A stretch of DNA of 19,960 nt, from IMG/VR virus record IMGVR_UViG_3300029337_000252, positions 1-19,960 of that record; one strand, written 5' to 3'. The DNA is from a virus (lineage: Duplodnaviria; Heunggongvirae; Uroviricota; Caudoviricetes). The notes beneath the pieces are model-generated. The model did no database searches. It saw nothing but the letters and a program-made list of their open reading frames with translations, and was not told the origin of the DNA. The translations under genes and the position numbers were made by a program. Shown one piece after another: positions 982 through 17,381 of the stretch (its first letter is position 1; each line of letters starts with the position of its first letter).

Positions 982-988
982 GCGTTCA

Positions 989-2405: not shown

Positions 2406-2453
2406 TGGTGCGAAGGTGCGAAGGTGCGAAGGTGCGAAGGCCGGACTCAAACA
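2406..2453. other. attL-like core: inverted, degenerate copy of a tRNA-Leu (leuX-type) 3' end with a 4x tandem GTGCGAAG expansion
   Basis: Reverse complement reads GAGTCCGGC(CTTCGCAC)x4 CA, close to the leuX 3' end (..GAGTCCGGCCTTCGGCACCA) recalled from memory. No intact tRNA gene is present. Confidence 0.55.
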
Positions 2454-2642
2454 TCAAAATAAGTTAATGATAAAAAACAAATAATAAAACACAACAATGA
2501 AATATGCCCCCTTTTGTGCCCCCACTGTTTTTCTGACCAATCTATTTTCAGCCCATCAATAAATCGGAAAGTTAAATCATTTTTAATCAGTAAGTTTGGA
2601 TCCGTAGCTCGGATCCAAACCAGTGCATCTTTTATCCACATA

Positions 2643-2936
2643 AAAAATTTTTTTTCGAAAGAACTGTTCACACTGTTCACCTTTCTGTTTTCTCCTTTTA
2701 TTTCAGAGTGATAGGTGGTGAATAATGGGTGAAGGGTGAACATTCGATTCTTCACCTCCGGCATTCTGCCGGTGTGACTCATACCGGTGATTAATCCCCC
2801 GTACTGAAATCACTCAGGAAGAAAAAAGTTTTTTTTGATTTGATTGTTCACACTGTTCACCTTTCGTTTTTCTCTTTTAATTTCAGTATGATAACGGGTG
2901 AATATACGGTGAAGGGTGAACAGTGGATTGTTCACC
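2643..2936. repeat. crr-like cis replication region: two ~114-bp direct repeats (period 180 bp) carrying TGTTCACC/GGTGAACA octamers
   Basis: Units about 2643-2756 and 2823-2936 are near-identical (A6-T8 tract, TGTTCACACTGTTCACC, GGTGAAGGGTGAACA, TTCACC). Lies immediately 3' of alpha, as crr does in P4. Confidence 0.7.
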
Positions 2937-2953
2937 TGCGGGGGATATCGGGA

Positions 2954-2979
2954 TAAAAAAAGACCGGCAGATGCCGGTC
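2954..2979 (-). terminator. Rho-independent terminator downstream of alpha
   Basis: 7-bp GC-rich stem (GACCGGC / GCCGGTC), 4-nt loop, followed on the minus strand by a U7 tract; 17 nt past the alpha stop codon. Confidence 0.6.
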
Positions 2980-2995
2980 AGGTGGGTCATGAGGG

Positions 2996-5329
2996 TCAGG
3001 TTGTCGCAGGGTCGTCACATTTTGGCAGCCAGTCGCCGTAGCTTTCCTCTTTCAGCGTCAGGTTGGTCTGTATCCCCTGTTTGGTATGGCGCTTCTCGTA
3101 ATTCAGTCCGTATTCCTTCAGCATCACCGGCAGCCCCAGCCCGAACATTTTCAGACTGAGTACATTCCGGTAGCCGTTTGCCTCCATGTAGGCCAGATAG
3201 GCGTGATAGAGGTATTTACGGTAATTACGCGGGATGATACTGGCGTTCCCCATATACATGCCGCTGGTCTGCGGCAGGGTTTCCAGATAGCCGATAAAAT
3301 CAAACGTCGGGTCGGCATCCCGTTTGATGTTCAGCGCCTCGTCTGAGTTCTGCTGGGACTGAAGCAGTGACCGGGCGAGCATCGGGTCGCTGAACTTCTG
3401 CATCAGGTGACGCACGATGACCGCCAGCTCGCGGGTGATTTTGTCCTTAAGCTGCGGGTCGCGCTCCTGCGGGGCTATCTGTTCCGGGAAGTGAATAATC
3501 ACCCGCCGGCGTGACACGCCGCCGCTGCGGTCGGTGAAGCGCATCGGGTTATTGTTCACGGCCAGAATCACCGCCGGGATGTGCGTGGAGTATGCATCCC
3601 GGTATTTCGGGTCAACGGACACCGCATCGCCGCCGGTGATGGCCTTGAGTCCGGCACCGTCGCCGCTCCATTTTTCCTGGTCCGGCAGGCGTATCAGTGA
3701 GAAGCCAGTTAACGCGGCACGTTCACGCGGGGATTCCAGCGTCTCAATGGTGGCCGACGTGGCGTTATCTTCCCCGGCCAGCAGGGTGGCTATTTCGGCC
3801 ATGATACTTTTGCCGCTGCCGCCGGGACCGGTCACCTCCAGAAAGAGCTGCCAGTCGTAGCGGTTTGCCAGCACCATAAACAGTGCGGCCAGAATCACGT
3901 CGCGTTTTTCCGCACGGCCACCGGCGGCACGGTCAAGCCAGCGCCAGAACGCGGGGGCGTGGGTTTCCAGCGTTTCCCCTTCCACCGGCGGGGTGAAATC
4001 CACATCACACAGGGTGCGCATCCAGTGTGACGGACTGTGCGGGTGGAACGTGCCGTTCTGCGTGTCGAGCACGCCGTTACGAAAGCCAATCAGGCGGCGG
4101 GAGGGGGCTTCCTGCTGCGGAATAATCAGCTTCAGGGTGTCCACCACGGAGGCCACCTTCCCGGAGGAGAACGGCGCGCGCAGACGCTGAAACAGCCCGG
4201 CCACATCCCGGGCAAAGTCCTGTGGCGGCAGCACCTTCCAGACACCATTTTCATAGCGGGACAGAAGCTGGCCGTTGGCATCGACCGCGAGCGCCTCGCC
4301 GTAATGCTCATAGATACGCATGGCCTTTTCACTGGTACTCATGGCGGAAAACTCCGCTTCGCTCATGGTGTCGAACGGGCTTTCAGCCGGTGGCCGGATG
4401 GCATCGTAAATGGCCTTACGGGTGGCTTCCCTGCCGTACTGCGTGAAGGCATCATTCCAGTCACCGAAGACCGGCGGCAGGGCAACAACACCTTCACACG
4501 CATCTGCGGCTGCGGCGGCTTTTTTCTGGCCGTCACCGCTGAGGTCACGGTCTGCGGCAAGGACAATCTGACAGGCCGGATGCTTCTGCCGGGCAAGGCT
4601 GGCCAGAGAAAGGAGGTTCACGGAAGAAAGCGCCACCATCACCGTTTCACCGGTCAGGTGATGTACGGTAAGTGCGGTCGCGTATCCCTCCGCTATCCAC
4701 AGACGTTTTCCGGCCTGATTCTGTCCTTCAAGGATGTGACAGGTGCCCCTGACCTGCCCGCCTTTCAGGGTGCGCTTACGGCCGTCAGCGCTGATTAACT
4801 GAAGGTTAACAAGTTCGCCGCTGTCGTCATACAGTGGCACCACAAGGTCACCGGCGCGCCAGCTCACGCCACCGGCTCTGTGTGTGCCGGTCAGCATCCG
4901 GCATTCCCGGCCGGGAAAGCCCTTGCGGGTCAGGTAGGCGTTACCGGTTCCGGTACGGGTTTTCGCCATCAGGGTTTGTGCCAGTGCGGCGGCGTTCTTC
5001 CGGGCAGCGTCTGTTTCAGCACCGGCGGCGGCCGTCACTGCCGGGTCAGCCGGGGGCAGGCTGCCGGTCACGGCAGCCACCTTTGTGGCCGCGTCGGACG
5101 GGGAGACACCAAACACCTTTTCAACCAGTTTCAGGCCGTCACCGGCACCACACTGATTGCAGTACCAGGTGCCGCGCCCCTCCCTGTCATCAAAACGGAA
5201 GCGGTCACTCCCGCCACAGACCGGACAGGGCTGATGACGGTTTTTCAGCACCTGAATCCCCAGCGCCGGGAGGATACGCGGCCAGTGGCCGAGCGCATGG
5301 CTGACGGTGGCGGTTACGTTCATTTTCAT
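2996..5329 (-). CDS. alpha: P4 alpha-type primase/helicase, 777 aa
   Basis: N-terminal zinc-binding primase motifs (CPVCGG ... WYCNQCG), central TOPRIM-like region, C-terminal Walker A (GPGGSGKS) of a D5/SF3-type helicase. Length equals P4 alpha. Confidence 0.95.
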   Translation of the reverse strand: MKMNVTATVSHALGHWPRILPALGIQVLKNRHQPCPVCGGSDRFRFDDREGRGTWYCNQCGAGDGLKLVEKVFGVSPSDAATKVAAVTGSLPPADPAVTAAAGAETDAARKNAAALAQTLMAKTRTGTGNAYLTRKGFPGRECRMLTGTHRAGGVSWRAGDLVVPLYDDSGELVNLQLISADGRKRTLKGGQVRGTCHILEGQNQAGKRLWIAEGYATALTVHHLTGETVMVALSSVNLLSLASLARQKHPACQIVLAADRDLSGDGQKKAAAAADACEGVVALPPVFGDWNDAFTQYGREATRKAIYDAIRPPAESPFDTMSEAEFSAMSTSEKAMRIYEHYGEALAVDANGQLLSRYENGVWKVLPPQDFARDVAGLFQRLRAPFSSGKVASVVDTLKLIIPQQEAPSRRLIGFRNGVLDTQNGTFHPHSPSHWMRTLCDVDFTPPVEGETLETHAPAFWRWLDRAAGGRAEKRDVILAALFMVLANRYDWQLFLEVTGPGGSGKSIMAEIATLLAGEDNATSATIETLESPRERAALTGFSLIRLPDQEKWSGDGAGLKAITGGDAVSVDPKYRDAYSTHIPAVILAVNNNPMRFTDRSGGVSRRRVIIHFPEQIAPQERDPQLKDKITRELAVIVRHLMQKFSDPMLARSLLQSQQNSDEALNIKRDADPTFDFIGYLETLPQTSGMYMGNASIIPRNYRKYLYHAYLAYMEANGYRNVLSLKMFGLGLPVMLKEYGLNYEKRHTKQGIQTNLTLKEESYGDWLPKCDDPATT

Positions 5330-5343
5330 GGTGTTGTTCTCCT

Positions 5344-5664
5344 TCAGTGCAGTACCGGCGCTTTTATGTGACGGGCACAGAGTTCATCCATCACAACCAG
5401 CCCGAGAAAGGACAGCGACGGCGCGGCCTTCAGGGGGCCGGATTCCATTAAATCTTCCAGCAGGGCACAGGCTATCTGACGCCCTTTTTCCTCACCGTGC
5501 TGGCGCAGATAAAAGCCTTCCAGCTCAGCGGCGATGGCCGCCTCCAGTGATTCAAGGGTGAGATGCGGGTAGCGGTGCTGACGTTCGCACACGGTCAGCC
5601 AGGCACAGGCGACAGCGCGACGGTAAAGGGCAGCGCGTAAGACGGGCGGTAAGGGTGTTTTCAT
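5344..5664 (-). CDS. Hypothetical protein, 106 aa (P4-like early operon)
   Basis: ORF in operon context between orf151 and alpha, 14 nt upstream of alpha. No motif recognised. Confidence 0.55.
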
Positions 5665-5799
5665 TTGCTTTCCTCCCTGTGACAGATGACTGCATTCCGT
5701 GCCGGTTGCATTAACTGATAAGGCATATCTGCGTCTCCTGAAGACGTGCGTATCCCTGCGCGAATACGCACATTTAATTTTTCGGGTGTCGTTTTTTAA

Positions 5800-6255
5800 T
5801 TACAGATAATTGCGGTAACTGTTATCCGGGGTGATTTCCGGGTCAGGCTCCGTGCGGGGAATTTCCCGCCATTCCCGCGCCACCGGTGCTGCCCGGCTGA
5901 CCGGAACAGGGTCCTGCGGGTAAATATCCAGATATTTCTCACGCCATTTCTGTAATTCCGGGTCTCCGGCCATTTCTTTCAGTACCGCATGCCGGTTTAC
6001 GGGGCTGCGTTTAAACAGGTCAGGACGGTCACAGGTAAATTCCCGCAGAAAACGCCCCAGCGGGATGTCTGTGGTGCGCCCGTCAGCGAGGATACGCACA
6101 AGGATACTGAATTTACGGCGGTACGGGTTCCAGACAATGTCCGGGCAGCGGTACGGCATTTCCCACGGAATACCGTCTTCCAGAATGCCGACCACGGCCA
6201 CATCGGGAAAACCGGCAGAACGGTAAATCTCACCGGGCTGGGGAAAATCAAACAT
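5800..6255 (-). CDS. P4 orf151-like protein, 151 aa
   Basis: Size and position (between epsilon and alpha) match P4 orf151; start overlaps the stop of the upstream gene. Confidence 0.65.
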   Translation of the reverse strand: MFDFPQPGEIYRSAGFPDVAVVGILEDGIPWEMPYRCPDIVWNPYRRKFSILVRILADGRTTDIPLGRFLREFTCDRPDLFKRSPVNRHAVLKEMAGDPELQKWREKYLDIYPQDPVPVSRAAPVAREWREIPRTEPDPEITPDNSYRNYL

Positions 6256-6535
6256 GCGTCCTGTCTCCCCGGTCTTTCTGCTGGGCGAGAAAATCGCGGC
6301 ACAGGCCTTTGGCTTTCAGCTCATTCAGCACAAAATCAATATCTTCATTCAGGTAGCTGAAAATATGCGGAATGTAGAGCTGATGCAGGCCGGAGAGTTC
6401 ACGGTGAATCAAATCACCCCCAACAAACCGGGATACGGCGCTGGCGCGGTTGAGCTTATGGTAAGCCTCAATGCTGAGGTGTTCACGGGCGTCATGACGC
6501 GCTGAGACGGTCTGAGGGGCTTTTTTATTACGCAC
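6248..6535 (-). CDS. Epsilon-like protein, 95 aa, proposed GTG start
   Basis: The ORF track gives 190 aa (to 6820), but the first 95 residues are low-complexity. A GTG with a GGAGG Shine-Dalgarno 5 nt upstream gives a 95-aa product, the size I recall for P4 epsilon. Confidence 0.5.
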
Positions 6536-6725
6536 GGGACACCTCCACCACCGGCAGACGGGCAGCAAGGGAGAGCACATAGTCACGGACAAGGGAACGG
6601 CGGGCACTGCGTTCATCACCGGCGACGGTGCGAAGCATACAGATACGGGGATGACGGTCTGTGCGACGGACAGCCGCAAACACAAAGACAAATTCAGGGT
6701 GTGAGGGGGTAAGGGTTGTAGCCAT
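6528..6725 (-). CDS. Hypothetical small protein, 65 aa
   Basis: ATG preceded by AGGAGG (8-nt spacer); overlaps the proposed epsilon start. Replaces the 214-aa track ORF 6528-7172. Confidence 0.5.
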
Positions 6726-6728
6726 GAT

Positions 6729-6847
6729 GGCAGCCTCCTGTGAATAGCAAATAACGCTATCGCCGGAGTTTCCACGCTCGATGGCGATAGCCCAGACGGG
6801 GGTGGAAATACCGGCTTCACAGGATACCGGCCAGCCCGGAGGCTGCC
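6729..6847 (-). promoter_or_regulatory. Structured leader upstream of orf66: hairpin plus U-tract and an anti-SD segment (candidate immunity/attenuation region, cI-like)
   Basis: 9-bp stem hairpin (6766-6774 / 6793-6801) followed on the minus strand by a U-rich run; 10-nt GGCAGCCUCC (6838-6847) exactly complementary to the orf66 SD region GGAGGCUGCC (6729-6738). Confidence 0.35.
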
Positions 6848-7123
6848 CCGCCTGAGCTACCATTGACTCTGCGGCATAATGAGCGGACGCGGGCAGGATG
6901 CACGGAATGCCATCTGCACGACTGACCACACACCACACCATAATCTGGCGCTCTGTGGCGTTGATTGCGACACAAAAAAAGACGCATGGCGCGTCATATG
7001 TCGCCTGTGAATTGCTCGGGTTTCCACGCCCGGCTGCCGATTTTGCGGCAGCGGAAAAACTATATCCGCAAATGCCGGAAAAAGGCAAGCCAGAAAAAGG
7101 GACTTTTTGCAGAGCGGGCATCA

Positions 7124-7390
7124 TCATGCGTCGTACCCCCGTTTGCGTCCGGCAATGCGCCCGGCCATCCATGCGGTGACTTCAGAGTGCAGCCAGGCCA
7201 CATTTTTACCGCCAAGACTCACCTGCGGCGGAAATTCCCCCTTACGGATGAGTTCATAGATGGTCGAGCGTGACAGGCCGCACAGGTGCATCACTTCCGG
7301 AAGACGTAAAAAACGCTCCTGTGTGATGTCCGGCAGCGGCATCAGTGGCGTCACAGGGGCGGGAGACGGGGAAGAAAAAACAGCTTGCAT
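7124..7390 (-). CDS. vis: Vis/AlpA-family DNA-binding regulator/excisionase, 88 aa
   Basis: AlpA-like helix-turn-helix core ([27 protein letters not shown]); size matches P4 orf88 (vis) as I recall it. Confidence 0.7.
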
Positions 7391-7493
7391 CGGGCTACCT
7401 CGTTAATGTCCATACAGCACCGGATAAGTCCGTCCGGCTTCGGGTAGCGCTTTATTTTGTGAATATTTTCAGCAGACGCAACAGGGGGGATTT

Positions 7494-7511
7494 GTTCCGG
7501 CAGCCTTACAA
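7494..7511. promoter_or_regulatory. TGT-N12-ACA dyad: candidate Delta/Ogr activator site of a leftward late promoter (P_LL-like)
   Basis: TGTTCCGGCAGCCTTACA, about 105-120 bp upstream of the vis start on the minus strand; same dyad form as P2/P4 late promoters. Confidence 0.4.
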
Positions 7512-7669
7512 TGCTTGTGTATTTTTTGTTCATCTCCACTTAAAGTCATTTAAAGCCACTTAAAGCAATTCGTAATTTTTATAGTGAAATACAAATCGTT
7601 TTTTCTTATTCATTCCCGGCGAATTAATAAAAACAAACAGTAATAAACAGCACAAAAAGCCCATCAACG

Positions 7670-7773
7670 GGTGAACAGTGGTGAACAGACGGTGAACAGT
7701 CATTACTGCGATTGTTCACCCTTTAACTTACTGTATTACTTATCTTTTTTCTTATGGTGAACAGAGGTGAACA
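7670..7773. repeat. ori-like iteron cluster: six TGTTCACC octamers (alpha-binding type I repeats)
   Basis: GGTGAACA at 7670, 7680, 7691, 7756 and 7766; TGTTCACC at 7713. Sits between the divergent vis and sid operons, about 4.7 kb from the crr-like repeats. Confidence 0.7.
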
Positions 7774-7853
7774 GTAAAATATAAAAAAAATAAACAGTAA
7801 GCCGTTTTTTCCAGCGACCTTTTCCTGGCTTGCCGGTCTGAGGATGAGTCTCC

Positions 7854-7871
7854 TGTGTCAGGGCTGGCACA
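7854..7871. promoter_or_regulatory. TGT-N12-ACA dyad: candidate Delta/Ogr activator site of the rightward late promoter (P_sid-like)
   Basis: TGTGTCAGGGCTGGCACA centred about 80 bp upstream of the sid ATG. Confidence 0.5.
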
Positions 7872-7943
7872 TCTGCAATGCGTCGTGTTGCTGTCCGGTG
7901 TACGTCACAATTTTCTTAACCTGAAGTGACGAGGAGCCGGAAA

Positions 7944-8678
7944 ATGTCTGACCACACTATCCCTGAATATCTGCAACCCGCACTGGCACAACTGGAAAAG
8001 GCCAGAGCCGCCCATCTTGAGAACGCCCGCCTGATGGATGAGACCGTCACGGCCATTGAACGGGCAGAGCAGGAAAAAAATGCGCTGGCGCAGGCCGACG
8101 GAAACGACGCTGACGACTGGCGCACGGCCTTTCGTGCAGCCGGTGGTGTCCTGAGCGACGAGCTGAAACAGCGCCACATTGAGCGCGTGGCACGCCGGGA
8201 GCTGGTACAGGAATATGACAATCTGGCCGTGGTGCTGAATTTTGAACGCGAACGCCTGAAAGGGGCGTGTGACAGCACGGCCACCGCCTACCGGAAGGCA
8301 CATCATCACCTTCTGAGTCTGTATGCAGAGCATGAGCTGGAACACGCCCTGAATGAAACCTGTGAGGCGCTTGTCCGGGCAATGCATCTGAGCATTCTGG
8401 TACAGGAAAATCCGCTCGCCAACACCACCGGCCATCAGGGCTACGTCGCACCGGAAAAGGCTGTCATGCAGCAGGTGAAATCATCGCTGGAACAGAAAAT
8501 TAAACAGATGCAAATCAGCCTCACCGGCGAGCCGGTTCTCCGGCTGACCGGACTGTCAGCGGCAACACTTCCTCACATGGATTATGAGGTGGCAGGCACA
8601 CCGGCACAGCGCAAGGTGTGGCAGGACAAAATAGACCAGCAGGGAGCAGTGCTTAAGGCCAGAGGACTGCTGTCATGA
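7944..8678 (+). CDS. sid: Sid, capsid size determination (external scaffold) protein, 244 aa
   Basis: Start moved to the ATG at 7944 (GAGGAG SD upstream) rather than the track's 7926; length then matches P4 Sid. First gene of a sid-delta-psu operon. Confidence 0.9.
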   Translation: MSDHTIPEYLQPALAQLEKARAAHLENARLMDETVTAIERAEQEKNALAQADGNDADDWRTAFRAAGGVLSDELKQRHIERVARRELVQEYDNLAVVLNFERERLKGACDSTATAYRKAHHHLLSLYAEHELEHALNETCEALVRAMHLSILVQENPLANTTGHQGYVAPEKAVMQQVKSSLEQKIKQMQISLTGEPVLRLTGLSAATLPHMDYEVAGTPAQRKVWQDKIDQQGAVLKARGLLS

Positions 8679-9175
8679 TTTACTGCCCGTCGTGTGGACA
8701 TGTTGCTCACACCCGCCGCGCACATTTCATGGACGATGGCACCAAGATAATGATTGCACAGTGCCGGAATATTTATTGCTCTGCGACATTTGAAGCGAGT
8801 GAAAGCTTTTTCTCTGACAGTAAAGATTCAGGAATGGAATACATTTCAGGCAAACAGAGATACCGCGATTCACTGACGTCAGCCTCCGGCAGTATGAAAC
8901 GCCCGAAAAGAATGCTTGTTACCGGATATTGTTGTCGGAGATGTAAAGGCCTTGCGCTGTCAAGAACATCGCGGCGTCTGTCTCAGGAAGTCACCGAGCG
9001 TTTTTATGTGTGCACGGATCCGGGCTGTGGTCTGGTGTTTAAAACGCTTCAGACCATCAACCGTTTCATTGTCCGCCCGGTCACGCCGGACGAACTGGCA
9101 GAAAGCCTGCATGAAAAACAGGAACTGCCGCCAGTACGCTTAAAAACACAATCATATTCGCTGCGTCTGGAATGA
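8675..9175 (+). CDS. delta: Delta, late-gene transcriptional activator (tandem Ogr-like zinc fingers), 166 aa
   Basis: Two Ogr-type zinc-finger halves (CPSCGH..C..C and CRRCKG..C..C); ATGA overlap with the sid stop. Confidence 0.9.
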   Translation: MIYCPSCGHVAHTRRAHFMDDGTKIMIAQCRNIYCSATFEASESFFSDSKDSGMEYISGKQRYRDSLTSASGSMKRPKRMLVTGYCCRRCKGLALSRTSRRLSQEVTERFYVCTDPGCGLVFKTLQTINRFIVRPVTPDELAESLHEKQELPPVRLKTQSYSLRLE

Positions 9176-9248
9176 GGGCTGCCGGTTAACACCGGCCGTC
9201 GCCGCACACCGTATTTTTATTCTTCAGCATGATGAGAAAGAGATAACG

Positions 9249-9821
9249 ATGGAAAGCACAGCCTTACAGCAGGCCTTTGACACCTGTCAGAATAACAAAG
9301 CAGCATGGCTGCAACGCAAAAATGAGCTGGCAGCGGCCGAACAGGAATATCTGCGGCTTCTGTCAGGAGAAGGCAGAAACGTCAGTCGCCTGGACGAATT
9401 ACGCAATATTATCGAAGTCAGAAAATGGCAGGTGAATCAGGCCGCCGGTCGTTATATTCGTTCGCATGAAGCCGTTCAGCACATCAGCATCCGCGACCGG
9501 CTGAATGATTTTATGCAGCAGCACGGCACAGCACTGGCGGCGGCACTGGCACCGGAGCTGATGGGCTACAGTGAGCTGACGGCCATTGCCCGAAACTGTG
9601 CCATACAGCGTGCCACAGATGCCCTGCGTGAAGCCCTTCTGTCCTGGCTTGCGAAGGGTGAAAAAATTAATTATTCCGCACAGGATAGCGACATTTTAAC
9701 GACCATCGGATTCAGGCCTGACGTGGCTTCGGTGGATGACAGCCGTGAAAAATTCACCCCTGCGCAGAACATGATTTTTTCGCGTAAAAGTGCGCAACTG
9801 GCATCACGTCAGTCAGTGTAA
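9249..9821 (+). CDS. psu: Psu, polarity suppression (anti-Rho, capsid decoration) protein, 190 aa
   Basis: Length and position (last gene of the sid operon, just before cos) match P4 Psu. Confidence 0.9.
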   Translation: MESTALQQAFDTCQNNKAAWLQRKNELAAAEQEYLRLLSGEGRNVSRLDELRNIIEVRKWQVNQAAGRYIRSHEAVQHISIRDRLNDFMQQHGTALAAALAPELMGYSELTAIARNCAIQRATDALREALLSWLAKGEKINYSAQDSDILTTIGFRPDVASVDDSREKFTPAQNMIFSRKSAQLASRQSV

Positions 9822-9856
9822 AATTCCCCGAAAATCCGCCCGTTTTTACTGAAAAA

Positions 9857-9895
9857 AGCCATGCATCGATAAGGTGCATGGCTTTGCATGCGTTT
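9857..9895 (+). terminator. Terminator-like hairpin after psu
   Basis: 9-bp stem (AGCCATGCA / TGCATGGCT) with a T-rich tail; A-run upstream, so possibly bidirectional. Confidence 0.45.
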
Positions 9896-9985
9896 TCCTG
9901 CCTCATTTTCTGCAAACCGCGCCATTCCCGGCGCGGTCTGAGCGTGTCAGTGCAACTGCATTAAAACCGCCCCGCAAAGCGGGCG

Positions 9986-10004
9986 GGCGAGGCGGGGAAA
10001 GCAC
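9986..10004. other. cos site (19-nt P2/P4-type cohesive end)
   Basis: GGCGAGGCGGGGAAAGCAC matches the P2/P4 cohesive end as I recall it; flanked by a GC-rich dyad (CCGCCCCGC AAA GCGGGCGG). Confidence 0.8.
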
Positions 10005-10238
10005 TGCGCGCGCAATCGAAAATTATGTGTTTGATAATTAAAACATTCTATATGCAGAAACATCACTGCCTATGGATAGCTTCTACTGCCGAACACACAC
10101 TAATCATCAAAATATCGCACTAAAGCACCCCAATATTATTAAAAGAAAAATACCAAGCAGAATTATCCCTTTCCATATTGAACGTTCGTTGATCTTATAG
10201 TGATAAGTTGCTAATCTCCATTAAAAAAGGAGATAACA

Positions 10239-11165
10239 ATGCACGCTTTAGCACCGTATCTTTTCCGCTGCTACAATCCGAACGCAGCCAAAGAACAACG
10301 TTATTCAGCACTGAGTAACATCAGAGAACATGATTTACTTGATATACTCGATGAATTTATTAAGCAGTATAATGAAGAATATATCCTTTCTGAAGAAACC
10401 AAACAAGTTTTTCGTTTTAATGAGATTACACGCGATAACAACAATCGAGAAATATATGGATGGTTCGAGTCTGGATATTACGGAACAAAGACCGACATAA
10501 TAAACATTGAAACTGGCGATGTAGACTTCGAAAAGACAAAAAACAATGCTGAAATAATTAGATATTACATACATTTTTATATTCCTAGAGATGTAAATGA
10601 AGGCATGGCGTTTTTACATACCTATAGAGGTGATGGTATAAAAACTCTTTTTATGAGATTGTTTTCAGATTATTTCAAGAGGGTTACCAACTTAGTGATT
10701 CAAATGAACCCTCTGGCGTATGATAAAGCGATTGAAAAATGGATGAATGCCATTACCAAAGAAATCAAGGTAACTAAATTCCATGGCATTACAGATGTAG
10801 CTGAACAAGCCAAAAAGCTAGGCCATAACGAGCAAGAATTAATTATCAAACCGCCTCGAAATGCAGGACTTGGAAGACTTCGAGACTATTTCTCCAGAGG
10901 CTCGGAGCAATATCAACTCGTTGAAGTCCTTAAAGAATATGGAGAAACAGTAAAAACAGTTGTTGAATTAGATAATGGCAGAAAAAGAACTTTTCATATT
11001 GGAACAACAGCAAGGGGAGCTGTATGTGAAATTTTATTTGATGAAGAACAAGTTGTTTTTTATGATGGCATGCCGGAAATAGCATCACTAAATAATTTTG
11101 TTGATGTTATTATCATGGAATATATACAGTTGTTATATCGTGGTGTTACTATAAGGAGAGCGTAA
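10239..11165 (+). CDS. Hypothetical soluble protein, 308 aa (cargo gene A, candidate sensor of a defence module)
   Basis: AAGGAGA SD 7 nt upstream; about 30% GC by eye; no Walker A, HNH, TOPRIM, TIR or other motif I can recognise. Confidence 0.8.
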   Translation: MHALAPYLFRCYNPNAAKEQRYSALSNIREHDLLDILDEFIKQYNEEYILSEETKQVFRFNEITRDNNNREIYGWFESGYYGTKTDIINIETGDVDFEKTKNNAEIIRYYIHFYIPRDVNEGMAFLHTYRGDGIKTLFMRLFSDYFKRVTNLVIQMNPLAYDKAIEKWMNAITKEIKVTKFHGITDVAEQAKKLGHNEQELIIKPPRNAGLGRLRDYFSRGSEQYQLVEVLKEYGETVKTVVELDNGRKRTFHIGTTARGAVCEILFDEEQVVFYDGMPEIASLNNFVDVIIMEYIQLLYRGVTIRRA

Positions 11166-11749
11166 TGAGTTCAAAGATAAATATATGCGAAGTTCTTATA
11201 GGCCACTTCAGAACTTTAAAAAATGCTGACACTAATAAGATCAGTTTATGGGATATATTTACATTCATAATACTACCATTTATTATTGCTGCCGCATTCT
11301 CACTCCTTGGAAGTGGTATAACAAAAGATTTAATATCATTATTAGTTAATTTCAGTGCAATACTAACAGCATTACTGCTTAGCGTTCTTGTTTTAGTATA
11401 TGATCAAGAATCAAAAATAAGACAAAGAAAAGATATTGATACATTCTATGAATCAAAGAAAGCATTACTCACTGAACTTTATTATAACATTTGTTATTCA
11501 ATTTTATGTGGAGTTTTGTTAGTCGTGTTGTGTTTTATAGTATCACTGTTTCCTGTCAATCAATCAGGATTCTTTTACGGCAAAACACATGAATATTATG
11601 TCAGCATAATAAACACAACTCTAAAATTAAATGTGTTATACTATTTTTTATGCCCACTCATAATATATGTTTGCGTACATTTAATTTTGAATATCATTAT
11701 GATTGTTAAAAGAATGCACGCACTCTTAACTCTTGATGTGAATGATTAG
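11165..11749 (+). CDS. Hypothetical 4-helix membrane protein, 194 aa (cargo gene B, candidate membrane effector)
   Basis: TAATG stop/start overlap with gene A. Four hydrophobic segments (about aa 27-51, 55-79, 104-129, 155-181); about 30% GC. Confidence 0.8.
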   Translation: MSSKINICEVLIGHFRTLKNADTNKISLWDIFTFIILPFIIAAAFSLLGSGITKDLISLLVNFSAILTALLLSVLVLVYDQESKIRQRKDIDTFYESKKALLTELYYNICYSILCGVLLVVLCFIVSLFPVNQSGFFYGKTHEYYVSIINTTLKLNVLYYFLCPLIIYVCVHLILNIIMIVKRMHALLTLDVND

Positions 11750-11759
11750 CTTTTAAATT

Positions 11760-11797
11760 AACCTAGCCAGCGAGACTACAAAAATTCTGGCTAGGTT
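11760..11797. terminator. Bidirectional terminator hairpin between cargo operon and int
   Basis: Perfect 11-bp stem (AACCTAGCCAG / CTGGCTAGGTT), 16-nt loop, A/T-rich flanks, between convergent stop codons. Confidence 0.55.
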
Positions 11798-11803
11798 AAA
11801 ATA

Positions 11804-12191
11804 CTATTTAAGTTGTCTAGCAAAATCATATGGTGTAATACTTTCTTTCTTATTTCTATCTAAATAATCTGCCCACCACTGTATCATTAAACGCCTTTCG
11901 TCTAAATGCTCAGATGTATGAATATAAGCAGCACGTACATTATTACGTTCTGAGTGACTTAGCTGACGTTCAATCGCATCATCACTCCATAAGCCTGATT
12001 CCCCTAATGCTCCACGCGCCATCGTTCTAAACCCGTGCCCGCAAACTTCGGTTTTCGTGTCATAGCCCATCGCACGCAATGCGCTATTTACTGTATTTTC
12101 ACTCATAACCTTAGTTGCGTCATGATCCCCCGGAAAAAGCAGTTCTTTATCACCACTAATCTGCTTTAACTGGTTTAGCTGCGTATTTTCA
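11804..12191 (-). pseudogene. int: P4-type tyrosine integrase, 3' fragment (C-terminal about 125 aa), N-terminal part removed at the IS junction
   Basis: Carries the C-terminal catalytic box (HGFRTMARGALGE ... RQLSHSERNNVRAAYIH). The reading frame runs into the IS left end at about 12192, and the first codons of the track ORF are IS-derived. Confidence 0.85.
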
Positions 12192-12372
12192 TGAAAGGAG
12201 ATCACTCAATAACTTCCATCGAGATCGGGTAATAACATTTGAACAGATCGCTGAATAACATCGATGGAGATCACTTTTGACTCATTTTGTTATTCAGTGA
12301 TCTCCATCAATGTTATTGGAACTTCACAGGTGTGTTGATCTGTATCTTTTGCCATTCCGGTAAAGGATACCT

Positions 12373-13914
12373 ATGCCAACAGTTCCAATTTCTATGAGAA
12401 AACTTAAAGAAATTCTTAGGCTTAAATACGGTGTTGGACTCAGCCATCGACAAATTGGTCGTAGTCTTGCAATCTCCCCTTCCGTTGTATCCAGATATGC
12501 TAATCGGGCGGCTCAACTTGGCATAAAGCAGTGGCCCTTACCTACAGGATGGGATGATACAAAACTAAAACATGCGTTCCTTCAGACCCAGGTTAAGATG
12601 AAGAAGCACTCTCTGCCTGACTGGGCTACAGTACACCGGGAACTGCGTAATAAATGCGTGACGCTGCAGCTACTCTGGGAAGAATACTGTGAGCGTAATC
12701 CAGGCGGTTTTTACAGCTATAACCATTACTGCCGGATGTACCGTGAATGGCTCAAAACCACTTCACCATCAATGCGTCAGGTACATAAAGCTGGCGAAAA
12801 ACTTTTCGTTGATTACTGTGGACCTACCGTTGGCGTTACCGACCCTGAGACCGGAGAAATAAGAACTGCTCAGGTCATCGTAGCTGTTCTCGGGGCATCA
12901 AGTTACACATGGGCAGAGGCCACCTGGTCTCAGCAGCTTGAAGACTGGGTGATGAGTCATGTTCGCTGCTTCCAGTGGTTGGGTGGCGTTCCTGAACTTG
13001 TTGTTCCGGACAATCTGAAAAGCGCCACATCCAGGGCATGTAAGTATGATCCTGACGTTAACCCTACCTACCAGCAGATGCTTGAGCATTATAATGTCGC
13101 AGTTTTGCCTGCGCGGCCACGTAAACCGAAAGATAAAGCCAAAGCTGAAGTTGGCGTTCAGGTTGTTGAACGCTGGATCATGGCCCGAATCAGGCATGAG
13201 ATCTTCTACAGCCTTGCATCGCTTAATCAGCGCATTCGGGAGTTGCTGGAAAGACTGAATAACAAAATAATGCAGAAGTTGGGTTATTCACGTGCAGAAC
13301 TCTTCATCCAGCTTGATAAACCCGCACTGAAGCCTCTTCCTGAAGCCAGTTACAGTTACACCCTGGTGAAGAAAGTCAGAGTTCATGCCGATTACCACGT
13401 GGAAATCGACAAACATTACTACTCGGTTCCATGTTCGCTGTTAGGCCAGCAACTGGAAGCATGGATCTCCGGAGAACTGGTAAGACTCTTCAATCAGGGG
13501 CAGGAGGTTGCTGTGCACCCGCGCAAGCGTACTTATGGCTACAGTACCCGCAACGAGCACATGCCTGAAGCTCATCGACAGCATGCCACCTGGACGCCAG
13601 AGCGTCTTCTGGAATGGGCGGGGCACATAGGCAGTGAAACTCATAGTTATGTGCTTCATATACTGAACTCTCGTCCACATCCGGAACAAAGCTATCGCTT
13701 CTGCCTTGGACTCCTGAACCTTCATAAAAAATACAGTAAAGCCAGACTTAATGCAGCATGTGCAAGAGCTCTGAAAACAAAGGTATGGCGTCTGTCAGGT
13801 ATTAAATCGATCCTGGAAAAAGGTCTGGATAAACAACCTGTTCAGGATCCAAAACCAGATCTGTTATCCACGATGGAACACGAAAACGTACGCGGCAGTG
13901 AGTATTACCACTGA
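12373..13914 (+). CDS. istA: IS21-family transposase IstA, 513 aa
   Basis: N-terminal helix-turn-helix, large size, followed 12 nt later by an IstB-type ATPase gene. Confidence 0.9.
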   Translation: MPTVPISMRKLKEILRLKYGVGLSHRQIGRSLAISPSVVSRYANRAAQLGIKQWPLPTGWDDTKLKHAFLQTQVKMKKHSLPDWATVHRELRNKCVTLQLLWEEYCERNPGGFYSYNHYCRMYREWLKTTSPSMRQVHKAGEKLFVDYCGPTVGVTDPETGEIRTAQVIVAVLGASSYTWAEATWSQQLEDWVMSHVRCFQWLGGVPELVVPDNLKSATSRACKYDPDVNPTYQQMLEHYNVAVLPARPRKPKDKAKAEVGVQVVERWIMARIRHEIFYSLASLNQRIRELLERLNNKIMQKLGYSRAELFIQLDKPALKPLPEASYSYTLVKKVRVHADYHVEIDKHYYSVPCSLLGQQLEAWISGELVRLFNQGQEVAVHPRKRTYGYSTRNEHMPEAHRQHATWTPERLLEWAGHIGSETHSYVLHILNSRPHPEQSYRFCLGLLNLHKKYSKARLNAACARALKTKVWRLSGIKSILEKGLDKQPVQDPKPDLLSTMEHENVRGSEYYH

Positions 13915-13925
13915 TACGGGATCCA

Positions 13926-14675
13926 ATGATGAATCATCTTTACGAACAACTGACCGCACTTAAACTCACCGGCTTCCGTGATGCGCTTAAAAAGCAACTT
14001 GCTCAGCCGGGCACATACCAGGAGCTGGGCTTCGAAGAACGCCTGTCATTACTGACAGCAGAAGAACTAACCTGCCGTGAAAACAGGAAGGCAGAGCGTC
14101 TGATCAAACATGCACGGTTCAGACTTAATGCTGAGTTATCAAAGCTGGATTATCGTAACAATAGAGGGCTGGACAGGGCCTTCATCCGTTCACTCAGTCA
14201 GGGAAACTGGTTAACCCTGAAACAAAATATTTTACTGACCGGGGCCACCGGCAGCGGTAAAACGTTCCTGGCATGTGCACTTGGTCATAATGCCTGCCGA
14301 CAGGGATACAAGGTCTACTATTATCGCCTTAAAGCGCTGATGGAACAGTGCTATCAGGGGCATGCTGATGGAAGATACAGCAAACTTTTGACCAGGCTGA
14401 ATAATAGCGATCTGCTGCTTCTGGATGACTGGGGGCTGGAACCTCTCTCATCAGAACAGCGTAGCGACCTGCTGGAAATAGTGGATCTGATGTACCAACG
14501 AGGCTCAATCATCGTAGTGAGCCAGTTGCCGGTGGAAAACTGGTACAAAATGATCGGAGACTCCACACATGCGGATGCCATCCTAGATCGACTGGTTCAT
14601 GGCAGTATCAAGATCGAACTTAAAGGAGAATCAATGCGGAAAATACAATCTCCGTTGACCGAAGGAGATCAGTGA
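13926..14675 (+). CDS. istB: IS21-family helper ATPase IstB, 249 aa
   Basis: Walker A (GATGSGKTFLACALG) and Walker B (LLLLDDWG) of the DnaC/IstB AAA+ family. Confidence 0.9.
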   Translation: MMNHLYEQLTALKLTGFRDALKKQLAQPGTYQELGFEERLSLLTAEELTCRENRKAERLIKHARFRLNAELSKLDYRNNRGLDRAFIRSLSQGNWLTLKQNILLTGATGSGKTFLACALGHNACRQGYKVYYYRLKALMEQCYQGHADGRYSKLLTRLNNSDLLLLDDWGLEPLSSEQRSDLLEIVDLMYQRGSIIVVSQLPVENWYKMIGDSTHADAILDRLVHGSIKIELKGESMRKIQSPLTEGDQ

Positions 14676-15341: not shown

Positions 15342-17381
15342 TCAATCATCTTCTGGGAATGATGAACTTAATAGCGTAGCTTCTGCGTATTGGTCGTAGA
15401 TATTACCGCTAAAGGTCATAAAGCTGGTTTCATCTGGTTTAATGGCAACTTCACCACCAAGTGAAACTTTCACAGGCTCCTGAATACGTTTACTCAAAGC
15501 GGAGATTTCATCTCTCAGGCTTTGGATATCTGCACTCGTTAATGCTGAATCTTGCTTAATGTTGTTTAATTCTGGATGCTGGAAGTTAGCAAGATTCATG
15601 GCAGCACTATTAAACCACCCTTTAACATCATCCATAGTGAAAGCGGGTTTAAGTCCAGACTCTTTAGCTAGCTCTGGTAATTTAGCTTGTGCTTCCATTC
15701 GTTCAGGCGTAGAAGCTAATCTCTCATAACCTGCATAGATTGCACTACCAGTTAATAGCATATTCCCAAGATTAAACCTTGATGGTTTCCCGTTCTTTTT
15801 ATTTACGTTATCTGCTGTAGTATCAGCGACCTGACCTAATCTTGTGATAGCAGTCATAAGCCCGTAAATACTTCTAGTTACACCAACAACTTTATTTACA
15901 GCAATAACACCAGCCAAGACTTTTAAACTATTAATCAAGCCAGAACCTAAAGCATCAACAACTTTCTTTTGTTCATCGGTTAAACCACGATAAGCTAATG
16001 TCACCTCATCAAAGAACGCTCTCACCCTGTAACTAATATAAGTCAGGTTATCGATACCATGTGACATATCACTCATCAAGCTACCAAGACTTTCACCTAA
16101 TGTTTTACCACTTCCATCTAAACTATTTAAAAGCGTTGTTAAGCTTCGTGTAAAATCTTGCAGACCATTTTCAGAACCTTTGAAAATATCCGTTAATGAG
16201 TTATTCCAGGTATTCTTTAAGTTCCCTAACATTGTCTGCGTAGAGTCCTGAATAGCTTTCCAGCCACCTCTTGAATTAATCTGTGCACCAAGTTCTTTAG
16301 CAAACTTAGGGAGTGCATCAGAGGCTTTAACATCACCATTTTTCATCTTATCGAAAAGCTGTTTTTCAGTCAGACCTAAAGCCTTTGCAAATGCCTGAGT
16401 AGCACCCGGTAAAGCTTCAGATAATTGCCCCTTCAACTCCTCAGACATCACCTGCCCCTTAGAAGCCATCTGCGATACTGCGGTTAATGCTCTTTGAATC
16501 TGCTCATCTGAACGCCCCATTAGACGGGCATATCCAGTTAAGTTTTTAAATAATTCCTCTGAGCCTTCAAGACCCATCGTATTCTTTGCAGATGCACCGA
16601 ATGAGGCAAACTGAGCTTGTGTTTCGGTCGTGTCCATACCCGTGACTTGAGTTAAATCCTGAATGAACTTTTTAACCTGTGTACTTTGGTCACCGAATAC
16701 GAAATCAATACTTCTTTCCGATGATGCACGCTGTAAACCAACTTCCATAATCTTCTGATAACTGGCTAATACAGCTTGCATTGAGATAAATGCACCTGCT
16801 GTTTTAACTGCTGCTGAAGACAGGTTATCAAGACTATTAGCTGCTCTGTCACCATTAATGCTGGTGGATGTATGACCTCTGGCTTTAGCAATTGCTTCTC
16901 GTACACTTGAATTTAGTTTAGCAAGGGCTTCATTAAACTTGGTGTTATCCATCTGACCAGCTTTACTACTTAATGCGTAAAACTGGCTCTTAATGTATTT
17001 CTCGACAATTGGGTTAAGACCTTTCAGTTTGGTCATACTCGCTGAATAAGCTGCTGTGATTGCTCTGCTTCCGCTAATTCGTGGTTGCCTTGATTGTCTA
17101 AGTGGCTTTAAAGTATCCTCAATTTCCGTTTTAATCTTAAACGCTTTAGTGTTTTTAAGACGCTGCTCAATCTTGGAAACAGTTTTATCGACATTTCTTT
17201 CCATGACCTTGAGAGAATCATTTAAAGGCGTAGGATTAACTCTGAATGCTTTATTTAGTCGTTTTTCAATTCTTGATGCGATTTGCATCGTTTGTTTCTC
17301 GGCTTTTTCCAAGCCTTTTAAAACTTTCTGAGAGTTAAAACTTAACTCAATCAGGAAGTCATCAACTTTAAACTGTGCCAT
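15342..17381 (-). CDS. Phage tail tape measure protein, 679 aa
   Basis: Long, helix-rich, low in aromatics; central segment (GQVMSEELKGQLSEALPGATQAFAKALGLTEKQLFDKMKNG) resembles the conserved tape-measure core region. Confidence 0.8.
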   Translation of the reverse strand: MAQFKVDDFLIELSFNSQKVLKGLEKAEKQTMQIASRIEKRLNKAFRVNPTPLNDSLKVMERNVDKTVSKIEQRLKNTKAFKIKTEIEDTLKPLRQSRQPRISGSRAITAAYSASMTKLKGLNPIVEKYIKSQFYALSSKAGQMDNTKFNEALAKLNSSVREAIAKARGHTSTSINGDRAANSLDNLSSAAVKTAGAFISMQAVLASYQKIMEVGLQRASSERSIDFVFGDQSTQVKKFIQDLTQVTGMDTTETQAQFASFGASAKNTMGLEGSEELFKNLTGYARLMGRSDEQIQRALTAVSQMASKGQVMSEELKGQLSEALPGATQAFAKALGLTEKQLFDKMKNGDVKASDALPKFAKELGAQINSRGGWKAIQDSTQTMLGNLKNTWNNSLTDIFKGSENGLQDFTRSLTTLLNSLDGSGKTLGESLGSLMSDMSHGIDNLTYISYRVRAFFDEVTLAYRGLTDEQKKVVDALGSGLINSLKVLAGVIAVNKVVGVTRSIYGLMTAITRLGQVADTTADNVNKKNGKPSRFNLGNMLLTGSAIYAGYERLASTPERMEAQAKLPELAKESGLKPAFTMDDVKGWFNSAAMNLANFQHPELNNIKQDSALTSADIQSLRDEISALSKRIQEPVKVSLGGEVAIKPDETSFMTFSGNIYDQYAEATLLSSSFPEDD

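What the first reader, a model, noticed from the sequence alone, without database searches (positions are those of the whole stretch)
10005..11800. Unrecognised two-gene operon (308-aa soluble protein + 194-aa 4-TM protein) in the P4 cos-to-int cargo slot: candidate novel anti-phage/abortive-infection system
Seen: between the cos site (9986-10004) and the integrase fragment lies a two-gene island of about 30% GC, against about 55-60% in the flanking P4 genes. It has its own SD sequences, a TAATG translational coupling and a downstream 11-bp-stem terminator. Gene A has none of the motifs I can recognise by eye; gene B is a small four-helix membrane protein. Established: this interval is where P4 carries its non-essential gop/beta/cII genes and where P4-like satellites carry variable defence cargo. 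Inference: a sensor plus membrane-effector pair, resembling RexA/RexB in architecture and a Kiwa-like size pair but in the opposite gene order, without evident sequence similarity.
Basis: partly seen in the sequence, partly recalled or inferred. Interest (0 to 1): 0.85.

Follow-up and report, generated by a model that had tools for sequence, protein, structure and literature searches.

The report
Divergent RexAB-like pair in P4 hotspot
The two genes are real anti-phage cargo of a P4-like satellite, but they are not unrecognised: the same pair was catalogued in 2022 as "similar to lambda RexAB", and structure prediction here supports that reading, although nobody appears to have tested this family experimentally.

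Summary
Observation confirmed. A 308-aa gene (10239-11165) and a 194-aa four-TM gene (11165-11749) overlap by one base (TAATG). They form a low-GC island between the P4 cos site and a truncated integrase.

The "unrecognised/novel" claim is not supported. Rousset et al. [quoted passage not shown] The printed sequences differ from the window's by 2 and 1 residues. I did not find it among their cloned constructs.

The pair is conserved in all 34 related loci examined, always on mobile elements, and gene A's family has at least 1,354 cluster representatives.

Most likely mechanism, inferred: a RexA-like sensor activates a membrane effector, causing abortive infection or growth arrest. Interest is modest.

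The parts
9986..10004 (+). P2/P4-type cos sequence GGCGAGGCGGGGAAAGCAC; left boundary of the cargo slot
   Evidence: Sequence read directly. Its identity as cos is from my own knowledge. A GC-rich hairpin lies just upstream.
10005..10238 (+). AT-rich leader upstream of gene A; presumed native promoter region, not demonstrated
   Evidence: GC falls to 0.34-0.40. No convincing sigma-70 match upstream of gene A: promoter-like sites in the region are no more frequent than in shuffles (10 found, 8.6 expected). It contains a 42-aa ORF (10072-10200) that is probably spurious.
10239..11165 (+). Gene A: 308-aa soluble protein with a RexA-like two-domain fold; presumed sensor and activator
11165..11749 (+). 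Gene B: 194-aa four-TM inner-membrane protein, N-in/C-in with a basic central cytoplasmic loop; presumed effector
   Evidence: ORF. Model pLDDT 80 with four long helices. Hydropathy and charge distribution. Strongly conserved TM2 and C-terminal MIVKRMH motif. Differs at 1 residue from protein 2 of system #36. No similarity to RexB detected.
11758..11799 (.). Stable hairpin between the convergent gene B and int; possible bidirectional terminator
   Evidence: 13-bp stem, -18.9 kcal/mol, z = -4.7, and 0 of 200 shuffles fold as well. Not called by the terminator scan because the loop is long and there is no U-run.
11804..12205 (-). C-terminal remnant of the P4-type integrase; right boundary of the cargo slot
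   Evidence: 133-aa ORF. The intact 419-aa int occupies this position in E. coli H2. Collinearity with that element ends at window 12179.
12373..14675 (+). IS21-family istA/istB that truncates int; context, not part of the system
   Evidence: Pfam rve plus Mu-transpos_C_2, and IstB_IS21 at 3.9e-67. Breakpoint at about 12180.

Best explanation
This is a divergent RexAB-like two-gene phage-exclusion module carried as cargo in the defence hotspot of a P4-like satellite. It is the system that Rousset et al. 2022 catalogued as P4 hotspot system #36.

Shown here:
- Gene A has the RexA/RdgC-type two-domain fold.
- Gene B is a four-TM, N-in/C-in membrane protein.
- The two genes overlap or abut, consistent with translational coupling, and are found together in all 34 related loci examined.
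- They sit on mobile elements.

Inferred from lambda RexAB, P. putida RexABpp and V. cholerae Sucellos:
- Gene A forms a dimer that binds DNA or a phage protein/DNA-protein intermediate made early in infection.
- Activated A then triggers oligomeric B in the inner membrane.
- Ion leakage or depolarisation and loss of ATP stop growth or kill the infected cell before phage progeny are made.
- That protects the clonal population and the resident satellite.
For: 1. Published identity. [quoted passage not shown] The RefSeq accessions WP_061358077 + WP_000095574 carried by the same pair in E. coli H2 are listed among the paper's P4 hotspot loci.

3. Sequence. hhalign of the gene A family against the RexA family always aligns the same co-linear region (A ELIIKPPR with RexA IVIKPK; A QMNPL with RexA EPLM). 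The match improves as the profile becomes more diverse. At Neff 3 it is P 0.006 over 42 columns. At Neff 6.5 it is P 2.3-2.9e-4 over 149-170 columns. The reversed decoy scores 13.4, and none of 120 block-shuffles reaches the real score of 36.8 (mean 21.7, sd 3.8). The built-in tool gives P 0.0024 over 106 columns.

4. Partner. Gene B has four TM helices, both termini predicted cytoplasmic, and a basic central loop, as lambda RexB does.

5. Conservation. B directly follows A in 25 of 25 viral contigs, mostly with ATGA or TAATG overlap. The same holds in 9 further loci from Pseudomonas, Shewanella, Aeromonas, Phycisphaerae, Nitrosomonas, Alcanivorax, Methylomonas and V. cholerae.

6. Context. 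The pair is always on or beside mobile or defence-type DNA:
- P4 hotspot
- next to a prophage integrase
- a satellite-like element
- a V. cholerae superintegron cassette
- the end of a filamentous prophage
- next to a type III R-M system, toxin-antitoxin pairs and resolvases

Against: - No HMM-level membership. Neither protein hits Pfam RexA/RexB or PADLOC RexA/RexB, and lambda's own proteins hit those PADLOC models at 9e-110 and 8.6e-61. None of 45, 43 or 115 family members scanned hits them either.
- Foldseek against viral predicted structures did not return RexA in the top 50. Only four uncharacterized siphovirus proteins were significant.
- The profile-profile probability stays at or below 41%.
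- Gene B shows no detectable similarity to RexB (P 0.54) and has no significant structural match.
- The fold evidence rests on a predicted model, not a solved structure.
- The pair does not sit beside a cI repressor as lambda rexAB does.
- Three other Rex-like or 4-TM P4 constructs that Rousset et al. tested are listed only among 'additional tested systems', not among the seven validated ones.
- No experiment on this family was found.
Confidence: 0.7

Rival explanations
1. A sensor plus membrane-effector defence system that is mechanistically unrelated to Rex. On this reading gene A shares only an old, widespread DNA-clamp fold (RdgC/IML3-CHL4/RexA class) and pairs with an unrelated membrane protein. 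Its trigger and its effector chemistry would then differ from RexAB.
Against: RexA is still the top hit, and only RexA and RdgC are matched over about 165 residues. The same gene order, size class, partner topology and mobile-element lifestyle as RexAB argue against coincidence. An independent published HHpred-based annotation reached the same conclusion.
Confidence: 0.15
2. Not primarily an anti-phage system. Instead, a module serving the mobile element itself. Gene A might be a DNA-binding modulator of the lysis-lysogeny or helper-exploitation switch, since lambda RexA also biases the CI/Cro switch independently of RexB. Alternatively it might be an RdgC-like modulator of recombination, with B as an accessory membrane protein.
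For: Lambda RexA has a RexB-independent role in the bistable switch (PMC11077077 abstract). RdgC is a recombination-associated protein with the same fold. The other Rex-like P4 constructs tested by Rousset et al. are not among the validated systems.
Against: The pair occurs in contexts with no lysis-lysogeny switch: an integron cassette, a Phycisphaerae island with R-M and toxin-antitoxin genes, and small integrative elements. The A-B pairing and overlap are strictly conserved, which argues that the membrane protein is integral to the function. Most unannotated P4 hotspot loci that have been tested do defend (6 of 8).
Confidence: 0.1
3. A toxin-antitoxin-like addiction module. The membrane protein B would be a toxin held in check by A, and the pair would stabilise the satellite, integron array or prophage.
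For: Small two-gene overlapping operons are typical of toxin-antitoxin systems. Integron arrays and the Phycisphaerae locus are rich in them. In mycobacteriophage Butters the membrane partner sequesters the cytosolic partner (PMC12894663 discussion).
Against: At 308 aa, gene A is far larger than typical antitoxins and has a DNA-clamp fold. In RexABpp the membrane protein is harmless unless the RexA-like protein is overexpressed. For Sucellos the two genes were also cloned and tested separately, and each alone gave no protection.
Confidence: 0.05

Closest known systems
P4 hotspot system #36 of Rousset et al. 2022 (Cell Host Microbe; PMC9122126, supplementary file 2)
   Same: The same two proteins, differing by 2 and 1 substitutions, in the same slot of P4-like satellites. 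[quoted passage not shown]
   Different: Nothing of substance: this is the same entity. I did not find it in that paper's tables of cloned and tested systems.
Bacteriophage lambda RexA/RexB (Pfam PF15969/PF15968; PDB 8TWQ)
   Different: No HMM-level similarity for either protein. B is 194 aa against 144 aa, with an extra N-terminal amphipathic helix and a beta-hairpin in the TM3-TM4 loop. The pair is not next to a cI repressor. The genes overlap by one base, whereas in lambda they are separated by 15 nt. Canonical RexA is a narrow enterobacterial family of 36 clusters, whereas this family has at least 1,354 representatives.
Sucellos (sclA/sclB; inferred to be VCA0367-VCA0368 of the V. cholerae N16961 superintegron; bioRxiv 10.1101/2024.07.02.601686)
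   Same: A two-gene cassette described as structurally similar to RexAB but not matched by the Pfam domains. Both genes are required, the membrane protein is predicted to form a pore, and the phenotype is abortive. My family also occurs as a superintegron cassette in another V. cholerae strain and in an ammonia oxidiser. Sucellos is reported in a Nitrosospira phage.
   Different: No N16961 protein appears among the 91 close homologues or in the Vibrio clusters I looked up. Sucellos is therefore not a close relative (my estimate: under about 35% identity), if it is related at all. I could not obtain its sequences, so the relationship is unresolved.
RexABpp (PP_5643/PP_5644, P. putida prophage P1; Sci Rep 2026, PMC12894663)
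   Different: It lies near a cI-like repressor inside a prophage. Residue 25 of the closest Pseudomonas gene B homologue (P0122) is not the W reported at that position in RexBpp, so it is not the same close family.
RdgC (recombination-associated DNA-binding protein, PDB 2OWL)

Membership tests
Rousset 2022 P4 hotspot system #36 ('RexA | RexB') | Same two protein sequences in the psu/cos-to-int slot of a P4-like satellite | tested here: met
   The printed sequences match the window proteins apart from 2 and 1 substitutions. The accessions WP_061358077 + WP_000095574 are listed as a P4 hotspot locus and are annotated between psu and int in E. coli H2.
Lambda RexAB sensu stricto (Pfam PF15969 + PF15968; PADLOC RexA/RexB) | Protein 1 matches the RexA HMM | tested here: not met
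   No hit at E <= 1 in Pfam or PADLOC. None of 45 or 115 family members hits it. Positive controls: lambda RexA hits PADLOC RexA at 9e-110, and system #22 protein 1 hits Pfam RexA at 43 bits.
Lambda RexAB sensu stricto (Pfam PF15969 + PF15968; PADLOC RexA/RexB) | Protein 2 matches the RexB HMM | tested here: not met
   No hit. hhalign of the gene B family against a 17-member RexB alignment gives P 0.54.
Lambda RexAB sensu stricto (Pfam PF15969 + PF15968; PADLOC RexA/RexB) | Located in the immunity region next to the cI repressor and co-transcribed with it | tested here: not met
   The pair lies between cos and int of a P4-like satellite. In lambda, rexA and rexB directly follow cI.
RexAB-like / RexAB-type systems in the broad sense (lambda, actinophage Rex-like, Sucellos, RexABpp) | Soluble component has the RexA two-domain fold (split globular domain plus inserted dimerization domain) | tested here: met
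RexAB-like / RexAB-type systems in the broad sense (lambda, actinophage Rex-like, Sucellos, RexABpp) | Detectable remote sequence homology of the soluble component to RexA (HHpred-type) | tested here: inconclusive
   hhalign P ranges from 2.3e-4 to 6e-3 and probability from 5% to 41%, depending on the alignments. The aligned region is always the same and is co-linear. Decoys do not reach the real score (0 of 120; 1 of 100 with the shallow profile).
RexAB-like / RexAB-type systems in the broad sense (lambda, actinophage Rex-like, Sucellos, RexABpp) | Adjacent, co-oriented multi-TM (four-TM) membrane partner | tested here: met
   Four TM helices, N-in/C-in. B follows A in 25 of 25 viral loci and in 9 of 9 other loci.
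RexAB-like / RexAB-type systems in the broad sense (lambda, actinophage Rex-like, Sucellos, RexABpp) | Soluble component dimerizes and binds DNA non-specifically | not testable with these tools
   Needs SEC-MALS and EMSA, or multimer and DNA co-folding. Only single-chain prediction was available.
RexAB-like / RexAB-type systems in the broad sense (lambda, actinophage Rex-like, Sucellos, RexABpp) | Both genes are required for phage exclusion, and the membrane partner causes depolarisation or permeabilisation when triggered | not testable with these tools
   Experimental. No paper in the searchable library reports a test of this family.
Sucellos (SclA/SclB) and RexABpp (PP_5643/PP_5644) | Sequence homology to the validated proteins | not tested
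   The sequences were not obtainable here: the supplement is truncated and those genomes are not in the collections. Indirect evidence: there is no N16961 member among the close homologues.
Kiwa (KwaA four-TM + KwaB DUF4868) | KwaB/DUF4868 and KwaA HMM matches | tested here: not met
No PADLOC or Pfam hits for either protein.
RdgC | Membership of the RdgC sequence family, chromosomal, with no membrane partner | tested here: not met

The most novel reading that the evidence does not exclude
This Pfam-less family has at least 1,354 cluster representatives at 50% identity. It spans Gamma- and Betaproteobacteria, a Planctomycetota MAG and a probable high-GC member, and it is carried by satellites, prophages, filamentous phages and integron cassettes. 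It may be the major natural lineage of Rex-type exclusion systems, far larger than canonical lambda RexAB, which has 36 clusters at 90% identity and is enterobacterial only. Its very strongly conserved membrane partner may not be homologous to RexB. That would mean RexA-fold sensors have been wired to at least two different membrane effectors. Current defence-annotation tools (PADLOC v2, Pfam, NCBIfam) would be blind to all of it.
Probability: 0.35. Interest if true: 0.55.

Novelty: already known. Interest (0 to 1): 0.3.

Why it matters
For the scan, the point is calibration. A finding scored 0.85 as an 'unrecognised, candidate novel' system turns out to have been catalogued and interpreted in a 2022 supplementary table.

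Some value remains:

1. This RexAB-like lineage is invisible to Pfam, NCBIfam and PADLOC, so genome annotations (RefSeq: 'hypothetical protein' twice) and defence censuses miss it. An HMM pair built from alignments A1/A4 and A2 would fix that.

2. Lambda RexAB is the oldest known abortive-infection system, and its trigger and activation mechanism are still unresolved. A large, diverse, strictly paired sister family offers covariation data and many orthologues for working out how a RexA-fold protein talks to a membrane effector.

3. The family's presence in P4 satellites, a V. cholerae superintegron, a filamentous prophage and other integrative elements illustrates how one defence module shuttles between very different mobile platforms.

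Tried and rejected
- Curated libraries: PADLOC, Pfam and NCBIfam gave nothing for either protein. PHROGs gave only two families of unknown function (phrog_15676, phrog_15250).
- PDB sequence search with the gene A profile: no hit at E <= 10.
- Phage genome collection by DNA: no match.
- Single-sequence hhalign of A1 against lambda RexA and A2 against lambda RexB: not significant.
- Foldseek of gene B against viral models: nothing significant and RexB not seen.
- Foldseek of gene A against viral models: RexA not in the top 50.
- AFDB50 fold search: the library was unavailable.
- System #22 of Rousset as a bridge between RexA and my family. It is a true Pfam RexA member and matches my RexA profile (E 1.6e-5), but it shows nothing against my family.
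- Looking for N16961 Sucellos or KT2440 RexABpp among cluster names: not found. The Sucellos supplement is truncated before the relevant tables.
- N-terminally extended family members as possible domain fusions. They look like mis-called starts and have no Pfam domains.
- Kiwa, toxin-antitoxin and RdgC readings: considered and judged less likely (see rival explanations and membership tests).
Full report
**1. The observation**

- Gene A runs 10239-11165 (+) and encodes 308 aa. Gene B runs 11165-11749 (+) and encodes 194 aa.
- Both have Shine-Dalgarno-like sequences. The gene A stop and the gene B start share one base, giving TAATG.
- GC content is 0.28-0.38 across the island and 0.47-0.63 in the flanking genes.
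- The 19-nt sequence GGCGAGGCGGGGAAAGCAC lies at 9986-10004. I recognise it as the P2/P4 cos sequence from my own knowledge.
- After gene B there is a very stable hairpin at 11758-11799 (-18.9 kcal/mol, z = -4.7). It has a long loop and no U-run, so the terminator scan did not call it. It is best described as a possible bidirectional terminator between gene B and the convergent int.

Pfam confirms the P4-like backbone: alpha primase-helicase, Ogr/Delta and Psu. In E. coli H2 the same pair lies between psu and an intact integrase next to tRNA-Leu.

In the window the integrase is only a C-terminal remnant. Collinearity with the intact element (98% identity over window 2431-12179) stops where an IS21-family element begins.

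The island is rare. It occurs in 7 of 5,426 complete E. coli genomes and is annotated 'hypothetical protein' in all of them.

**2. What the proteins are**

Neither protein matches anything in PADLOC, Pfam or NCBIfam. PHROGs returns only two families of unknown function.

Both proteins nevertheless belong to well-conserved families.

- A word-indexed search found 91 gene A clusters and 308 gene B clusters, mainly in Gammaproteobacteria. Consecutive locus tags point to a conserved pair.
- An exhaustive profile search found 1,354 cluster representatives (at 50% identity) for gene A at E <= 1e-3, and 790 at E <= 1e-10. Nearly all are about 300 aa and match end to end.
- Named remote members come from Chromobacterium, Ignatzschineria and Snodgrassella.
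- None of 115 diverse members hits any Pfam family.

AlphaFold models were usable: gene A pLDDT 82 and pTM 0.76, gene B pLDDT 80.

Gene B has a short N-terminal amphipathic helix, four long TM helices and a small beta-hairpin in the TM3-TM4 loop. Hydropathy and charge distribution give an N-in/C-in topology with a strongly basic central loop. Lambda RexB has the same layout.

**3. The RexA connection**

The RexA structure paper names RdgC, IML3 and CHL4 among RexA's own structural relatives. It describes a split globular domain (1-139 plus 248-279) interrupted by a dimerization domain (143-234). The gene A model has the same arrangement: 1-150 plus C-terminal helix 281-299, with an inserted alpha/beta domain at 153-266.

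*Sequence.* The link is in the twilight zone but consistent.

- With shallow profiles, hhalign aligns A 180-225 with RexA 171-213 at P = 0.006. The reversed decoy scores 16.3, and 1 of 100 block-shuffled decoys reaches the real score.
- With a profile enriched in remote members (Neff 6.5), the match grows to 149-170 co-linear columns at P = 2.3-2.9e-4 and 41% probability. The reversed decoy scores 13.4, and 0 of 120 block-shuffles reach it (mean 21.7, sd 3.8, against a real score of 36.8).
- The built-in tool gives P = 0.0024 over 106 columns.
- A relaxed alignment is co-linear over almost the whole length. It puts conserved motifs of the two families in register: QMNPL with EPLM just before the RexA hinge, and ELIIKPPR with IVIKPK in the dimerization domain.

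*Against.*

- Foldseek on predicted viral structures did not return RexA. It found four uncharacterized siphovirus proteins.
- One of those phages, Siphoviridae sp. ctylc9, also supplied the best, though not significant, match for gene B. The pair therefore probably occurs together in a phage.
- Gene B shows no detectable similarity to a RexB family alignment (P = 0.54).

**4. It is already in the literature**

Searching the supplementary tables of Rousset et al. 2022 for the RefSeq accessions and for the protein sequences gave a direct hit. [quoted passage not shown] The printed sequences differ from the window proteins at 2 and 1 residues.

The system's sequences are absent from the paper's tables of cloned constructs. 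Three other Rex-like or 4-TM P4 constructs (pFR86, pFR81, pFR87) are listed under 'additional tested systems', not among the seven validated ones.

System #22, which pFR86 carries, is a genuine Pfam RexA member at 43 bits. It is unrelated at sequence level to my family. P4 hotspots therefore carry several independent Rex-type lineages.

Two later studies validated RexA-fold plus membrane-protein pairs that Pfam or BLAST did not recognise.

- Sucellos from the V. cholerae superintegron needs both genes and gives abortive infection. SclB is predicted to form a pore, and a phage pentapeptide-repeat protein counteracts the system.

I could not obtain those sequences. No N16961 protein is among my close homologues, so the relationship of this family to either validated system remains open.

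**5. Genomic behaviour**

Gene B follows gene A in 25 of 25 viral contigs, usually with an ATGA or TAATG overlap. The same is true in every other locus examined. The contexts are:

- next to a prophage integrase in Pseudomonas
- in a small integrative element in Shewanella
- in a satellite-like element with P2-type capsid and scaffold genes in Aeromonas
- next to a type III R-M system, two toxin-antitoxin pairs and resolvases in a Phycisphaerae MAG
- in Nitrosomonas, Alcanivorax and Methylomonas
- at the end of a filamentous prophage in V. cholerae
- a few genes downstream of the superintegron integrase in another V. cholerae strain

This is the distribution expected of mobile accessory, defence-type cargo.

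**6. Mechanism**

The following are shown or predicted from sequence: the RexA-type fold of A, the four-TM topology of B, the strict pairing and gene overlap, and the mobile-element cargo status.

The rest is inferred by analogy with lambda RexAB, RexABpp and Sucellos. A dimerizes through its inserted domain and binds DNA or a phage protein/DNA intermediate. It then activates oligomeric B. The resulting membrane leak or depolarisation arrests or kills the infected cell.

I put about 0.7 on this overall reading. Lower-probability alternatives are:

- a mechanistically distinct sensor-effector pair that shares only the fold (0.15)
- a role in the mobile element's own life cycle (0.1)
- an addiction module (0.05)

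**7. Verdict**

The claim of novelty fails.

What is not in the literature I could search is any experimental test of this family. I also found no description of its size, of its invisibility to current HMM libraries, or of the apparent non-homology of its membrane partner to RexB. Those points justify modest residual interest.

Noticed in passing
window 11804-14675 (breakpoint at about 12179/12180): The P4-type integrase is cut to its C-terminal 133 codons by an IS21-family element (istA 12373-13914, istB 13926-14675). The 5' part of int does not reappear after the IS, and the next large gene is an unrelated tape-measure protein (15342-17381, minus strand). The satellite has probably been immobilised by an IS-mediated rearrangement.
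   Followed up: partly
window 1-1639: The left end of the window is not P4. It holds a SASA-domain (sialate O-acetylesterase-like) ORF at 1-981 and an HNH-endonuclease ORF at 989-1639 (minus strand). Collinearity with the reference P4-like element starts only at 2431.
   Followed up: no
gene A family (alignment A4): Gene A belongs to a family with no Pfam model: 1,354 representatives at 50% identity at E <= 1e-3. Canonical RexA (PF15969) gave only 36 clusters at 90% identity, all Enterobacterales. An HMM pair for this family would close a gap in defence annotation.
   Followed up: partly
L013 7076-8549; L012 8001-9498: In V. cholerae the same pair occurs in two places. One is a few genes downstream of the integrase that follows thrS-infC-rpmI-rplT, which I recognise as the superintegron integrase position, so the pair is an integron cassette there. 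The other is the end of a filamentous (Zot and pII-type Rep) prophage beside rtxA. One module thus sits on two very different mobile platforms within one species.
   Followed up: partly
L007 1-11482 (Phycisphaerae MAG): A small defence-island-like or plasmid-like stretch. It holds a type III R-M system (N6_N4_Mtase plus ResIII/RE_endonuc), the A-B pair, two resolvases, TacA-acetyltransferase and RelB-ParE toxin-antitoxin pairs, and a ParA-like gene. This shows the pair outside Proteobacteria.
   Followed up: no
Rousset 2022 supplementary file 2, systems #4, #22 and #36: P4 hotspots contain at least three separately catalogued Rex-like two-gene systems. #22 is a true Pfam RexA member, and #36 is far more divergent. 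The Rex-like constructs that were tested are not among the validated systems, so Rex-type cargo in P4 remains functionally unproven on the phage panels used.
   Followed up: partly
window 10072-10200: A 42-aa ORF lies in the AT-rich leader between cos and gene A. It is probably spurious, but it sits where a promoter or regulator for the operon would be expected. No convincing sigma-70 site was found upstream of gene A.
   Followed up: no
gene B residues 58-84 against lambda RexB 44-70: The best (non-significant) local alignment of the two membrane-protein families overlays their second TM helices, which are the most conserved segment in each. Both are followed by a basic loop and an aromatic motif (LYYN in B, YGY in RexB) at the start of TM3. 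This may be coincidence or a trace of common ancestry.
   Followed up: partly
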